64,000 bases of DNA from an uncultured Anaerolineales bacterium (GTDB lineage: Bacteria > Chloroflexota > Anaerolineae > UBA7937). The position numbers and the translations under genes were made by a program. The stretch is taken from the NCBI GenBank assembly GCA_964383935.1, contig CAYLIE010000006.1, forward strand, positions 35,377-99,376, read 5' to 3'. The notes under the pieces were generated by a model that was not told the origin of the DNA, ran no database searches, and worked only from the letters and a program-made list of their open reading frames with translations. Positions 20-2,172 of this stretch are shown here, piece after piece; position 1 is the first letter of the stretch, and each line of letters begins with the position of its first letter.

Positions 20-115
20 AGGGTTGTAGGGGAGGGGCTTGCCTGTCCTGAGCGCAGCGAAGGGTCCCCTCCCGTTTCACCCCTCCTTTTCGGGAGGCCA
101 CCAGGGCCTCCCCTA
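20..115. repeat. Partial copy of the GC-rich modular intergenic repeat family (gcttgcctgtcctgagcgc module; 8-bp inverted repeats gggagggg/cccctccc at 30-37 and 66-73; second stem gggaggcc/ggcctccc at 92-112)
   Basis: Shares the cctgtcct-agcgc module with the copy at 56134-56160 and its inverted form at 7623-7652. Seen directly in sequence. Confidence 0.3.
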
Positions 116-156
116 CATTGGTGTCAGGAGCTACATCTTGACAGTACCAAACAGAT

Positions 157-1140
157 CTACGCTATATGGTCTCGCTTCTCCCGATTGCATGTGGCGCACA
201 GGAGTTGGACATTCTTCTCAGTGTTGCTACCGCCCTTTGAGATGGGAATGATGTGGTCGAACTCTAAATCCTCAGTACTCCCGCACTTCACGCATCGACC
301 ACCATCTCTTTCCCAGACGAGCAGTCGGACCTCCTCCGGAATCCTTTCCCGCCCCCCTTGCTCAAGGGCTTCTTCGGCCGCAGCCTTGGCCTTGCCAAGC
401 CTCTCAAACTTCCTCTGCTCCCGCCTTCCTTTCTCCCATATCAAAAGCCTGGCCTCTTCTTCAGAGTACCCTGTGCTTGCCCAGAACTTATCACGGTGCC
501 ACCAGAACTTACCCTCCAGCTTGTCCTGCTTTTGGGGGAACCAAGTGCATAGGTAGATAGGTTCCTCTCTCTGGAACGCCTGGGCCTTCTCGAACACGCT
601 GGGCTTCATGTATACATGCATATAAACGCCTGAGTAGCCCCAACGATCTTTGTCCGCCAGGCGGCTATCCTCGGGGTGGAATGAAATGCAGTGCCAGCGC
701 TTCTCCGCCGTCCTCTTGCGCTGCAGAGCCTTTCTCAATTTTGTTTCGACAGTAGAGAGGGTGTCTTCGACAGTAGAGAGGTCGCTCTCCAGGGTAGCCA
801 CTTCACGCTCCAGCTCTTCGCGTCGCCGTTCACTGCTGAAAAGAGACCGCAAGCCCACCCGAGACTGGGCCAGCTTTGCTCGGGCTTTTGTGAGCTTCCA
901 TTCCAGGTCTTGCTTCTTCCTCTCTAGGGCTGACTTCTGCCACTCAAAGGTCTGCGGCGTCCTAATGGGAGCAGTGATGCGTCTCGCTGCTCTTTTGTCC
1001 AGCTCCTTCGCGACAAATTGGCCACGCGCTTCATACAGCCACCAACGACGGTGCCCACCAGACTTCATTTCAGACTGTTCCAGAGATTGGAGATCCATCG
1101 TGCCAATCGTGCCTTTGGTCAGCCTAATCGCCCTCTGCAC
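157..1140 (-). CDS. HNH (His-Me finger) endonuclease-domain protein with long coiled-coil N-terminus
   Basis: C-terminal CVKCGS...EFDHIIPISKGGSNTEKNVQLLCATCNREK is a classic HNH motif with Cys pairs. The N-terminal ~200 aa is charged coiled-coil containing an in-frame 21-bp tandem repeat (STVEDTL/STVETKL). Confidence 0.7.
   Translation of the reverse strand: MQRAIRLTKGTIGTMDLQSLEQSEMKSGGHRRWWLYEARGQFVAKELDKRAARRITAPIRTPQTFEWQKSALERKKQDLEWKLTKARAKLAQSRVGLRSLFSSERRREELEREVATLESDLSTVEDTLSTVETKLRKALQRKRTAEKRWHCISFHPEDSRLADKDRWGYSGVYMHVYMKPSVFEKAQAFQREEPIYLCTWFPQKQDKLEGKFWWHRDKFWASTGYSEEEARLLIWEKGRREQRKFERLGKAKAAAEEALEQGGRERIPEEVRLLVWERDGGRCVKCGSTEDLEFDHIIPISKGGSNTEKNVQLLCATCNREKRDHIA
746..787. 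repeat. In-frame imperfect 21-bp tandem duplication inside the HNH gene (tcgacagtagagag x2, spaced 7 bp)
   Basis: Exact 14-mer at 746-759 and 767-780. Confidence 0.85.
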
Positions 1141-1187
1141 CTTCTTACCTCCTTCCCCACCGCTCCCTGAGCCGTTAGCCAGTCAGT

Positions 1188-1436
1188 TCATTGAGATGCC
1201 TCTATCATCCTGTCGCAGGCCTCCTTCGCTCTTTTTGTGAGCAAAAGCAGACGCTCTAGTGTCTCCGGTGTCGGCTGTATCGGCATCTCTGGCGTCCCTA
1301 GGCACTTCTCCCATACGAATTGTCGCAACTCTATGAAAGCATCCTCGAAGCCTCGGACTGCCTTAACATGTTGCTCCCACAACTCTTCTTCATTCATCGC
1401 TTCCAGATTCATCTCTCTTCCCTCCTCCCCCACCAC
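1188..1436 (-). CDS. Small acidic hypothetical protein (82 aa) immediately upstream of, and co-oriented with, the HNH gene
   Basis: ORF with a 47-bp gap to the HNH start; no recognisable motif. Confidence 0.35.
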   Translation of the reverse strand: MVGEEGREMNLEAMNEEELWEQHVKAVRGFEDAFIELRQFVWEKCLGTPEMPIQPTPETLERLLLLTKRAKEACDRMIEASQ

Positions 1437-1461
1437 TCCCTGAGCCTCTTGACCCTATGCA

Positions 1462-2172
1462 TTAAAACATCTTCGTCTCGTTAATGGTCAAGACGAACTC
1501 GCAGCCCAAGAACCGCACGGCCCGCCGGGTCATGAGCATCCTGCTCATGAATATCTCGAAATACTCCATCACGCTCGATATCTCCGTGTCCACCTCCAAC
1601 TCCAAGGTGATGGTCCTATTCTCCGCGTCCACCCGCACGAAGGAGCGCTGGGCGGCGTAGTTTACCCGGTCGTGGATGTCGAAGGAGAGCATATCGGGGT
1701 TCTGCACCCGCGAACGGTGGACATCGGCCTTGTCGGCGATGATGACCGCCGCTGAAATCTCGCTCACCGGCTCACCTCGCTCCTCCTCGTGGTTGCCGAT
1801 GGCGGCCATGATCAAGGCGGTCTCCTTAGGATCCATCCCTAGACGTCGCAAGATGTCCAGGGCGATGAGGGCACTGGCGCTAGCGTGAGCATCGCGGTGG
1901 ATGGCGTTCCCGATATCGTGGAGATAGGCCGCTATGGCTGCCAGTTCCGCCCTCCTCTCGGGGTAATCGAGGCGTAAAAGGACGTTTTGGGCGATATTGG
2001 CCACCAGGCTGGAGTGTCTCTTACCATGCTCCGTATAGCCCAATGTTCGCAACTGCTCATTGGCCGATTCGAGGAGAGCGACCGCCTCCCCATCCTGCTT
2101 TACCTCATCCAGGGTGACTATCCCTTCCTTCGCTCCCTTTAACTCCGTTGGCGTCGTATTCGATTTAGTCAA
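1462..2172 (-). CDS. HD-domain phosphohydrolase
   Basis: H...YLHDIGN motif, HD superfamily signature. Confidence 0.75.

What the first reader, a model, noticed from the sequence alone, without database searches (positions are those of the whole stretch)
157..1436. HNH nuclease with repeat-bearing coiled-coil N-terminus plus small upstream partner ORF at the window edge
The 327-aa protein couples a textbook HNH/His-Me finger to a ~250-aa N-terminal region. This region is highly charged and coiled-coil, contains an in-frame 21-bp tandem repeat (746-787), and has a Trp/Tyr-rich middle segment (WGYSGVYMHVYMKP…YLCTWFPQ…KFWWHRDKFW) that I cannot assign to a family. An 82-aa acidic ORF sits 47 bp upstream on the same strand. 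The architecture (nuclease effector, repeat-variable N-domain, small co-transcribed partner) is reminiscent of stand-alone defence or selfish nuclease modules. The element's left boundary lies beyond the window.
Basis: partly seen in the sequence, partly recalled or inferred. Interest (0 to 1): 0.55.

Follow-up and report, generated by a model that had tools for sequence, protein, structure and literature searches.

The report
Strain-variable HNH nuclease with undescribed N-terminal module
This is a real, probably active DNA-cutting enzyme (HNH type) joined to a protein module not found in Pfam 2025 or the PDB, sitting as a swappable accessory gene between housekeeping genes of an Anaerolineae-like bacterium; the small upstream gene is an independent neighbour, not its partner.

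Summary
Both ORFs lie on the minus strand: a 327-aa HNH protein (157-1140) and a small acidic ORF 47 bp upstream (1188-1436, more likely 74 aa starting at the ATG at 1412). The 21-bp in-frame duplication is real.

- The "Trp/Tyr-rich segment" is a conserved module of about 95 aa with no match in Pfam or the PDB. It is usually followed by this HNH subtype, occurs in 1-6 tandem copies, and is occasionally joined to an Mrr nuclease or a RuvB-like ATPase.
- The coiled coil is a predicted helical hairpin in an N-terminal region seen only in close relatives.
- The small ORF has just two homologues. One is certainly, and the other probably, followed by an unrelated gene, so the two ORFs are not a conserved pair.
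- Both ORFs, and about 60 unrelated small ORFs in related metagenomes, are preceded by the same near-invariant 26-31-nt leader.
- The slot downstream of the same housekeeping HD gene holds different genes in related genomes, so the HNH gene is an exchangeable accessory gene.
- I saw no defence-island, phage or integron signature.

My best guess is a solitary restriction-like nuclease whose fast-evolving N-terminus senses a nucleic-acid feature. That function is inferred, not shown.

The parts
157..1140 (-). Gene for the 327-aa HNH nuclease (GTG start at 1140, stop at 157-159)
   Evidence: ORF list. An identical 327-aa protein, P0001, is in the protein collection (sources NCBI and Logan) and is a called gene on Logan contigs L001/L002. 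The AF2 model has mean pLDDT 88.
160..348 (-). HNH catalytic domain plus its N-terminal helix (aa 265-327), with a CxxC...DH...N...CxxCN zinc-finger active site
   Evidence: Pfam HNH E 9.2e-13. Nearly invariant C283, C286, D295, H296, N310, C315, C318, N319. Foldseek gives local matches to EcoKMcrA 6ghc and Gme HNH 4h9d at probability 1.0 and rmsd 2.1-3.5 A. It is 84-89% identical to the syntenic orthologues.
349..705 (-). Undescribed Trp-rich module plus long linker helix (aa 146-264). Predicted order: beta-beta-alpha-beta-beta-beta, then a helix of about 35 residues. Motif KFWWHRDKFW...YSEEEARLLIWEK.
   Evidence: A profile of this segment finds 560 proteins at E<1e-3 among 1.84 billion representatives, with 1-6 copies per protein. 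The domain-only AF2 model has pLDDT 89.5. There is no Pfam, PDB-sequence or significant PDB/BFVD fold match.
706..1140 (-). Hypervariable, very basic N-terminal region (aa 1-145, pI 10.6). Short beta strands (aa 4-46) are followed by a helical hairpin (aa 49-94 and 104-144, nt 709-996).
   Evidence: AF2 secondary structure. This region cannot be aligned with the syntenic orthologues L003 and L004, although flanking genes are 83-95% identical. pI.
745..786 (-). In-frame 21-bp tandem duplication (two copies, 17/21 identical) that duplicates one heptad (LSTVEDT/LSTVETK) in the second hairpin helix
   Evidence: It is absent from all homologues.
1143..1173 (-). Leader copy 2: GGCTCAGGGAGCGGTGGGGAAGGAGGTAAGA, containing the ribosome-binding site. 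It ends 2 nt before the HNH GTG start.
   Evidence: Direct repeat D1. Only two copies occur in the 64-kb window, with none expected by chance. The same leader precedes about 60 unrelated ORFs in related contigs.
1188..1412 (-). Small acidic ORF, 74 aa from the ATG at 1412 (82 aa if read from the GTG at 1436). An orphan gene.
   Evidence: three proteins in total, counting itself. No family match in Pfam, PHROGs, PADLOC or NCBIfam. pI 4.7. Its two homologues are followed by other genes.
1416..1446 (-). Leader copy 1: GGCTCAGGGAGTGGTGGGGGAGGAGGGAAGA. It ends 3 nt before the ATG of the small ORF.
21..129 (-). Conserved non-coding element of about 110 nt downstream of the HNH gene, with two GC-rich hairpins (GGGGAGGCC/GGCCTCCC and GGGAGGGG/CCCCTCCC). 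It forms the other edge of the variable slot.
   Evidence: The same element ends the cassette run in L007. Logan contigs L001 and L002 end within its 23-nt repeat core (window 42-64) and L007 about 34 nt past it. No Rfam match.
1462..2172 (-). Context: housekeeping-type HD-domain gene that forms the fixed upstream edge of the variable slot. A terminator-like hairpin lies at 1472-1497.
   Evidence: Pfam HD E 1.4e-9. It is 87-95% identical in L003 and L004. Its 3' end precedes a leader in L003, L007 and L026. Hairpin.

Best explanation
The 327-aa protein is a stand-alone, strain-variable accessory nuclease.

Shown:
- It carries a catalytically intact McrA/Gme-type HNH zinc-finger nuclease domain at the C-terminus.
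- A long helix links that domain to a module of about 95 aa (beta-beta-alpha-beta-beta-beta-alpha, motif WWxYRDxFW) that matches nothing in Pfam 2025 or the PDB.
- The module is followed by this HNH subtype in 95 of the 150 best-scoring proteins. In single examples it is joined to an Mrr-type nuclease or to a RuvB-like ATPase plus HNH.
- Upstream of the module lies a very basic region found only in close relatives, with a predicted helical hairpin.

Inferred:
- The N-terminal half recognises a nucleic-acid feature, such as a modified base or an unusual DNA/RNA structure.
- The helical hairpin dimerises the protein, so that two HNH domains can cut both strands.
- The enzyme therefore works like a solitary, type-IV-restriction-like nuclease, and its sensor evolves fast.

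The small upstream ORF is not a functional partner. It is a separate neighbouring gene that shares the same conserved 26-31-nt translation leader. The slot between the HD gene and the 110-nt element exchanges such leader-headed genes between related genomes.
For: Nuclease: Pfam HNH E 9e-13 and conserved catalytic and zinc residues. Foldseek local matches to McrA and Gme HNH.

Module:
- 560 hits for its profile; 1-6 tandem copies per protein; 95 of the top 150 carry HNH.
- P0245 is the module plus Mrr_cat. It matches PADLOC's type IV REase model PDLC03663 at E 2.3e-95 over model positions 150-530, so the module (aa 28-132) precedes, with a short overlap, the part of P0245 (aa 100-481) that matches model positions 150-530.
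- P0210 is the module plus a RuvB-like AAA+ ATPase plus HNH, an arrangement that parallels reader-ATPase-nuclease enzymes.
- Published screens find that modification-dependent nucleases are built as an N-terminal sensor plus a C-terminal HNH or PD-(D/E)XK domain (PMC6765204).

Fast-evolving sensor: identity to the syntenic orthologues is 84-89% for the HNH domain, 56-61% for the module and unalignable for aa 1-145, while neighbouring genes are 83-95% identical. aa 1-145 has pI 10.6.

Accessory status: the content of the same slot differs between the window, L003, L004, L007 and L026.

No partner. Relatives are solitary in L014, L016, L062, L063 and L064.
Against: - No biochemical evidence exists. 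Nothing shows what the module binds, or that it binds nucleic acid at all.
- The module has no significant structural match. The best hits are weak dsRNA-binding-domain-like ones (E>=1.1, probability <=0.21).
- No defence genes, DNA methyltransferases, phage genes or mobile-element genes are consistently nearby.
- PADLOC hits to the window protein cover only the HNH core, at 18-22 bits.
- The Mrr and RuvB-like fusions are single examples among 150 proteins.
- Dimerisation through the hairpin is pure inference.
- Tandem arrays of up to six modules are unusual for a base-specific reader.
Confidence: 0.4

Rival explanations
1. Selfish, homing-type endonuclease gene. The HNH enzyme cuts an empty or alternative version of this slot, or the shared leader, and so promotes its own copying into genomes that lack it. 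That would explain the presence/absence pattern at a fixed site between housekeeping genes.
For: The gene is present or absent at the same locus in related genomes. It is flanked by repeated leader sequence that could support recombination. Relatives sit alone in gaps between housekeeping genes. Many PHROG 'HNH endonuclease' families match at E down to 3e-19.
Against: There are no relatives in 2.9 million viral contigs, and the leader is absent there too. There is no intron, intein or phage context. The PHROG hits cover only the HNH core. The N-terminus is hypervariable, whereas a homing enzyme must keep recognising one conserved target. Orthologues at 56-89% identity at the same site point to long vertical residence.
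Confidence: 0.15
2. Toxin-immunity (or toxin-antitoxin) pair. The small acidic 74-aa protein neutralises the basic HNH nuclease, as Im9 does for the colicin E9 DNase.
For: The small ORF is acidic (pI 4.7), while the nuclease is basic (pI 9.5). The two genes are adjacent on the same strand, 47 nt apart, with identical leaders. In L003 an acidic-looking (by eye) 108-aa ORF follows the HNH gene.
Against: The small ORF's only homologues are followed by non-HNH genes. HNH relatives elsewhere lack any such neighbour. A phmmer search found no distant paralogue of the small ORF in any fetched locus. It matches no toxin, immunity or antitoxin family. The HNH protein has no secretion or translocation domain.
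Confidence: 0.08
3. A DNA repair or recombination nuclease (for example one that processes branched DNA) working with a RuvB-like motor, i.e. a housekeeping function rather than a conflict function.
For: In L004 the orthologue is followed directly by a divergent RuvB-like gene. Many proteins fuse a RuvB-like AAA+ domain to this HNH subtype, and one also carries the module. There are weak endonuclease VII profile hits. The chromosomal context is syntenic and made of housekeeping genes.
Against: L007 and L026 carry unrelated genes in the slot directly after the HD gene; both contigs are short (about 1.1 and 2.2 kb), so absence of the HNH gene from those genomes is not shown. The N-terminus is hypervariable. 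No RuvB-like gene is seen next to it in the window, L003, L014, L016 or L062-L064. Most RuvB-like fusions lack the module and have a degenerate Walker B motif (EQID).
Confidence: 0.1
4. An integron-type gene cassette. The two ORFs are promoterless cassettes captured by an integron integrase at attC sites.
For: Small, mostly orphan ORFs occur in tandem arrays, each headed by the same conserved sequence, and in different orders in different genomes.
Against: The spacer between ORFs is only 47 nt. By eye it lacks the inverted-repeat attC architecture and the GTTRRRY core site. No tyrosine-recombinase gene was seen in the flanks examined. The conserved sequence lies at the 5' end of each ORF and includes the ribosome-binding site, whereas attC lies at the 3' end of a cassette.
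Confidence: 0.05

Closest known systems
Type IV (modification-dependent) HNH restriction enzymes, e.g. EcoKMcrA, ScoMcrA, TagI/ScoA3IV (SRA-HNH), TspA15I (PUA/EVE-HNH)
   Same: Both are single-chain enzymes with an N-terminal sensor region and a C-terminal HNH zinc-finger nuclease. The HNH core superposes on McrA (6ghc, rmsd 2.1 A over 62 columns, 32% identity). Both are often solitary genes with no adjacent methyltransferase (PMC6765204).
   Different: The N-terminal module matches none of the known reader folds or families (SRA, PUA, EVE, YTH, DUF3427, the McrA N-domain): there is no Pfam, PDB-sequence or significant fold match. It can occur in up to six tandem copies. Modification dependence is untested.
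Gme HNH nicking endonuclease (PDB 4H9D) and other small stand-alone HNH proteins (Pfam HNH / HNH_5)
   Same: It has the same HNH subtype: 34% identity and Foldseek probability 1.0 over 67 columns. The CxxC/CxxC zinc finger and the DH...N...N catalytic pattern are the same.
   Different: Those proteins are about 100 aa and consist of the catalytic core only. Here about 260 further residues precede the core.
Mrr-family type IV restriction enzymes (PADLOC mREase_IV PDLC03663)
   Same: One member of the module family (P0245) is a strong member of this enzyme family (E 2.3e-95). In P0245 the module lies N-terminal to the part that matches model positions 150-530.
   Different: The window protein has an HNH catalytic domain, not a PD-(D/E)xK one. 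The link rests on a single protein.
Colicin E9/Im9-type HNH DNase with immunity protein
   Same: Both combine a basic HNH nuclease with an adjacent small acidic protein.
   Different: The adjacency is not conserved. There is no translocation or receptor-binding domain and no similarity to immunity proteins.
Integron gene-cassette arrays
   Same: Both are arrays of small, mostly orphan ORFs separated by a conserved sequence, with different orders in different genomes.
   Different: The conserved sequence is a 5' leader with a ribosome-binding site, not a 3' attC hairpin. The spacers are too short for an attC site, and no integrase was found.

Membership tests
HNH / His-Me finger endonuclease superfamily (Pfam PF01844, PF14279) | Profile match above the curated threshold | tested here: met
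   HNH 48.6 bits against a cut-off of 21.4; HNH_5 45.0 bits against 27.5.
HNH / His-Me finger endonuclease superfamily (Pfam PF01844, PF14279) | Catalytic His (the DH dyad), the Asn metal/structural residues and the two CxxC zinc ligands are all present | tested here: met
   C283, C286, D295, H296, N310, C315, C318 and N319 are present and at least 90% conserved in 35 homologues.
HNH / His-Me finger endonuclease superfamily (Pfam PF01844, PF14279) | Beta-beta-alpha-metal fold | tested here: met
   In the AF2 model the C-terminal domain has pLDDT 82-97. It aligns locally to McrA 6ghc (rmsd 2.1 A) and Gme HNH 4h9d.
Type IV modification-dependent restriction endonucleases (McrA-like, SRA/PUA-HNH) | Two-part architecture: N-terminal sensing domain plus C-terminal nuclease | tested here: met
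   AF2 domain layout. The module precedes the HNH domain in the domain hits mapped (P0001, P0002, P0004, P0008, P0015, P0125, P0127).
Type IV modification-dependent restriction endonucleases (McrA-like, SRA/PUA-HNH) | The sensing domain belongs to a known modified-base reader family (SRA, PUA/EVE/YTH, DUF3427, McrA-N, SBD) | tested here: not met
   No Pfam family recurs in 78 module instances even at E<=10. A profile search of PDB sequences finds nothing at E<=1. Best Foldseek PDB hit E 1.1.
Type IV modification-dependent restriction endonucleases (McrA-like, SRA/PUA-HNH) | Cleavage requires modified DNA | not testable with these tools
   This needs enzyme assays on modified and unmodified substrates.
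Type IV modification-dependent restriction endonucleases (McrA-like, SRA/PUA-HNH) | Match to a curated type IV model | tested here: inconclusive
   PADLOC mREase_IV PDLC03656 matches at E 3.6e-4 (18 bits), on the HNH core only. A module-bearing relative, P0245, matches PDLC03663 at E 2.3e-95.
HNH toxin with cognate immunity/antitoxin gene | Conserved adjacency of nuclease gene and small partner gene across relatives | tested here: not met
   The partner's two homologues precede other genes. Relatives of the nuclease lack it.
Free-standing homing endonuclease genes | Association with phage genomes, introns or inteins | tested here: not met
   No relatives in IMG/VR. No BFVD fold match. Flanks consist mainly of cellular housekeeping and metabolic genes.
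Free-standing homing endonuclease genes | Presence/absence polymorphism at one conserved site | tested here: met
   The same HD-gene junction carries different content in the window, L003, L007 and L026.
Integron gene cassettes | attC recombination site (imperfect inverted repeats with a GTTRRRY core) at the 3' end of each cassette | tested here: not met
   The spacer is 47 nt. No inverted repeat was found there. By-eye reading of the consensus of 61 instances shows no attC boxes.
Integron gene cassettes | Adjacent integron integrase (intI) and attI | tested here: inconclusive
   None was seen in the available flanks. However, the window and most contigs end near the arrays.
Multi-gene defence systems that use an HNH effector (Septu PtuB, Zorya II ZorE, CBASS Cap5, Cas9) | Significant match to the system's HNH component, together with the partner genes | tested here: not met
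   PtuB E 0.02-0.04; SAVED-HNH E 0.01-0.04; the Cas9 hits cover the HNH insert only. Among the neighbours scanned against Pfam/PADLOC/NCBIfam (small ORF, HD gene, methyltransferase) there is no ATPase, SAVED or CRISPR partner.

The most novel reading that the evidence does not exclude
The WWxYRDxFW module would be a new nucleic-acid sensor domain, possibly with a core like a dsRNA-binding domain. It would define a widespread but unrecognised family of single-chain restriction-like nucleases, with a canonical form of about 178 aa and versions of up to 700 aa carrying six tandem modules. In addition, the near-invariant 26-31-nt leader would mark a previously undescribed system in Anaerolineae-like bacteria for exchanging and expressing small accessory genes at chromosomal hot spots. 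The HNH gene here would be one cargo of that system.
Probability: 0.2. Interest if true: 0.7.

Novelty: new variant of a known kind. Interest (0 to 1): 0.4.

Why it matters
If the module is a nucleic-acid reader, it adds a new sensing fold to restriction-like nucleases. New sensing folds in this class have been a source of tools for mapping DNA modifications. The tandem-array versions would need a different recognition logic from known readers.

The leader-headed, shuffled small genes point to an uncharacterised way in which a poorly studied phylum (Chloroflexota, class Anaerolineae) organises or regulates its accessory genes.

Taken strictly as submitted (HNH nuclease plus partner ORF as a defence or selfish module), the finding is fairly ordinary. 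Uncharacterised N-terminal extensions on HNH nucleases are common, and the proposed partnership does not hold.

Tried and rejected
- Tandem Repeats Finder found nothing at 1-2500. The 21-bp duplication had to be confirmed with the repeat finder and my own count.
- PADLOC, PHROGs and NCBIfam matched only the generic HNH core. The small ORF matched nothing.
- The idea that the protein holds two copies of the module was not confirmed. The '2 stretches' are the module plus a short EEVRLLVWERD match at the start of the HNH domain. The N-terminal RRWWLYE scores only 0.4 bits.
- The genome-contig scan returned only two loci: an Anaerolineae MAG and a Thermoleophilaceae MAG. The window's own genome is not among the species representatives, so the region to the left of position 1 could not be recovered.
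- The leader as a structured RNA: no Rfam hit. A CCUGGGU/GCUCAGG hairpin is present in many copies but not in the two window copies, and fold z-scores are unremarkable.
- Integron reading: rejected, because there is no attC-like structure and the spacers are too short.
- The Methylomonas homologue P0094 has the same HNH subtype but lacks the module, so its context was not used as evidence for the family.
- Composition: the two ORFs are only 3-5 GC points below their neighbours, which is not decisive for horizontal origin. No sigma-70-like promoter was found.
- Literature searches for RuvB-HNH fusions and for Anaerolineae integrons found no description of this family or of the leader.
Full report
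**1. What is in the sequence**

Both ORFs of the finding are on the minus strand. The nuclease gene is 157..1140: 327 aa, GTG start. The small ORF is 1188..1436: 82 aa from the first GTG. The gap between them is 47 nt. NCBI's own gene call for the small ORF is 74 aa (P0121). That corresponds to an ATG at 1412, three nucleotides after a GGAGG-containing sequence.

Pfam places an HNH domain at aa 283-323 (E 9.2e-13). The zinc ligands and catalytic residues (C283, C286, D295, H296, N310, C315, C318, N319) are nearly invariant in 35 homologues.

The 21-bp in-frame duplication lies at 745-765 and 766-786 and matches at 17 of 21 positions. Tandem Repeats Finder missed it. It is still the only such event in 64 kb, against 0.01 expected from shuffles. 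It duplicates one heptad, LSTVEDT/LSTVETK. It is private to this protein, and the two other samples that carry the gene encode an identical protein.

**2. Architecture of the protein**

AlphaFold2 with 35 homologues gives a confident model, mean pLDDT 88. From N- to C-terminus it predicts:
- short strands at aa 4-46;
- a helical hairpin, helices 49-94 and 104-144;
- a beta-rich unit with one short helix, aa 148-223;
- a long helix, aa 227-261;
- the HNH domain.

The C-terminal domain aligns locally with EcoKMcrA (6ghc) and the Gme HNH nicking enzyme (4h9d). Nothing else in the PDB matches significantly.

Many homologues are only 176-230 aa and cover just the C-terminal half of the query. A profile of aa 146-264 therefore isolates a unit of its own. 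Searched against 1.84 billion representative proteins, it finds 560 proteins at E<1e-3. These include proteins with three, four, five and six tandem copies (P0124-P0130).

Of the 150 best hits, 95 carry this HNH subtype. Most of the rest are short and may be fragments or module-only proteins. Single examples carry other domains:
- an Mrr_cat nuclease (P0245);
- a RuvB-like AAA+ ATPase plus HNH (P0210);
- CarD_TRCF_RID, DnaJ, or an HTH domain.

P0245 is a strong member of PADLOC's type IV restriction model PDLC03663 (E 2.3e-95). The match covers aa 100-481 of P0245 and model positions 150-530, and the module (aa 28-132) lies N-terminal to that stretch with a short overlap.

The module matches no Pfam family. 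None recurs among 78 instances even at E<=10. It matches no PDB sequence. A domain-only model (pLDDT 89.5) has no significant fold match in the PDB or in BFVD. The only recurring weak hits are dsRNA-binding domains (probability <=0.21). They share the alpha-beta-beta-beta-alpha core order, and I treat this as a lead only.

The idea that aa 1-46 is a degenerate second copy of the module is not supported by sequence.

**3. Genomic setting**

The exact protein was found on two short Logan contigs. L001 and L002 end inside a repeat about 110 nt downstream of the stop codon. The window begins 40 nt further on, probably near a contig end.

Related genomes keep the same gene order upstream: ECF sigma factor, anti-sigma factor, two conserved proteins, a methyltransferase, then the HD-domain protein (L003 and L004). 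L004 belongs to an Anaerolineae MAG. What follows the HD gene differs between genomes:

| Source | Content after the HD gene |
|---|---|
| Window | 74-aa ORF, then HNH gene |
| L003 | HNH gene directly, then ORFs of 108 and 42 aa, then AspRS |
| L004 | 211-aa ORF, HNH gene, a divergent RuvB-like gene, then AspRS |
| L007 | 73-aa ORF, then a Zn-ribbon/coiled-coil/membrane protein; no HNH gene |
| L026 | a 412-aa protein |

In the window and in L007 the variable stretch ends at the same conserved element of about 110 nt (window 21-129).

Flanking proteins are 83-95% identical among the window, L003 and L004. The nuclease is different: the HNH domain is 84-89% identical, the module 56-61%, and aa 1-145 cannot be aligned.

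So the gene sits in a hot spot, and its sensor end evolves far faster than its neighbours. In more distant lineages, module-HNH genes are solitary and lie mainly among housekeeping or metabolic genes, with no recurrent partner gene (L010, L014, L016, L062, L063, L064). A MazE/PIN toxin-antitoxin pair lies about 2 kb from the gene in L063. No relatives occur in viral contigs.

**4. The small ORF and the shared leader**

The small ORF has only two homologues among 5.8 billion proteins, at 81-86% identity. Neither is followed by an HNH gene. It matches no family, and a phmmer search found no distant paralogue in any fetched locus.

A 31-nt direct repeat explains why the two ORFs look like a unit. 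Its copies lie at 1143-1173 and 1416-1446 and are 90% identical. One copy sits immediately upstream of each start codon and contains the ribosome-binding site. Only these two copies occur in the 64-kb window.

A scan of public metagenomes with the core of this sequence found 45 contigs. The ORFs are mostly unrelated:
- an RNase H;
- an MtlR-like protein;
- Zn-ribbon proteins;
- proteins that look membrane-bound or secreted by eye;
- many orphans.

The instances often form tandem arrays. The same genes recur in different orders: the 74-aa ORF, the Zn-ribbon protein, an 'MQRII...WKSG' membrane protein and the HNH gene (L006-L008, L017, L030, L031, L034, L036, L058).

The leader is not in Rfam. 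It has no convincing conserved fold. It is absent from viral contigs. It does not look like an integron attC site. Its role (shared translational control, recombination site, or both) is unresolved.

**5. Most likely function**

Shown:
- an intact HNH nuclease domain;
- a conserved, repeatable N-terminal module that is found almost only with nucleases;
- a very basic, hypervariable N-terminus (pI 10.6);
- accessory, exchangeable status at a housekeeping locus.

Inferred:
- the N-terminal half senses a nucleic-acid feature;
- the hairpin dimerises the enzyme;
- the protein acts as a solitary restriction-like nuclease. This follows the N-terminal-sensor plus C-terminal-nuclease pattern described for modification-dependent enzymes (PMC6765204).

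I put this at about 0.4. The rivals are a homing-type selfish gene (0.15), a RuvB-linked repair nuclease (0.1), a toxin-immunity pair (0.08) and an integron cassette (0.05). The remainder is 'something else'.

**6. Comparison with known systems, and novelty**

The protein is a secure member of the HNH superfamily. It works like a type IV restriction enzyme in layout. It fails the membership feature 'known reader domain', and modification dependence cannot be tested here. It is therefore not filed as a type IV enzyme.

I rate it a new variant of a known kind: an ordinary nuclease core joined to a module that Pfam and the PDB do not cover. As submitted, the finding is of moderate interest (0.4). 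The module family and the leader-headed gene arrays are the parts worth following up.

Noticed in passing
window 1143-1173 and 1416-1446 (-); L017-L061: A near-invariant 26-31-nt leader, (CCCTCCTGGGTGCAGA)GGCTCAGGGAGTGGTGGGGGAGGAGG, ends at or just before the start codon of about 50 mostly unrelated small ORFs (52 of 68 instances) in Anaerolineae-like metagenome contigs. It often occurs in tandem arrays whose gene order is shuffled. It is not in Rfam, not in viral contigs and not attC-like. Its function is unknown.
   Followed up: partly
window 21-129 (-); L007 990-1090: A conserved non-coding element of about 110 nt with two GC-rich hairpins closes the variable slot. Logan contigs L001 and L002 end within its core CCTGTCCTGAGCGCAGCGAAGGG and L007 about 34 nt past it, which suggests a multi-copy repeat in these genomes, although the window has only one copy.
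   Followed up: partly
P0052, P0053, P0059, P0060, P0065, P0069, P0082, P0091; L004 8817-9785: A family of proteins fuses a RuvB-like AAA+ domain to this HNH subtype in place of RuvB's winged-helix domain. Several have a degenerate Walker B motif (EQID instead of DEIH), and some have an N-terminal region of repeated CxxC units. In L004 a separate, divergent RuvB-like gene directly follows the HNH orthologue.
   Followed up: partly
P0124 (699 aa), P0125 (600 aa), P0126 (466 aa): These proteins consist of four to six tandem copies of the Trp-rich module. P0125 ends in an HNH domain, whereas P0124 has no detectable nuclease domain.
   Followed up: partly
window 325-360 and 421-462 (aa 227-240 and 268-279 of the HNH protein): The start of the linker helix (YSEEEARLLIWEKGRRE) resembles the first helix of the HNH domain (IPEEVRLLVWERDGGR). 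HMMER reports it as a weak second match in every close homologue. It may be an internal duplication or chance.
   Followed up: no
window 1472-1497 (-): A terminator-like hairpin followed by a T-rich tail overlaps the last codons of the HD gene, just upstream of the first leader. This hints that the two accessory ORFs are transcribed separately from the HD gene, although no sigma-70-like promoter was found.
   Followed up: no
L062 4444-5250: In an unrelated lineage, an 81-aa GIY-YIG protein is encoded 22 nt upstream of a 179-aa module-HNH gene, so two different small nuclease genes lie side by side.
   Followed up: no
L055 891-1394: One leader-headed ORF is an MtlR-like protein with an R-x4-H motif (IRNRFAH), which resembles HEPN-type nucleases. 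The leader-headed gene pool may therefore include other conflict-type genes.
   Followed up: no
start codons after the leader: window 1140, L007 410, L008 409, L006 3733: The first 7-10 residues of otherwise unrelated leader-headed proteins resemble one another (V/M-QRAIRLT, VAEIIRLT, MQRIIRLW, MKRVITI). The conserved or recombining segment may extend into the first codons.
   Followed up: no
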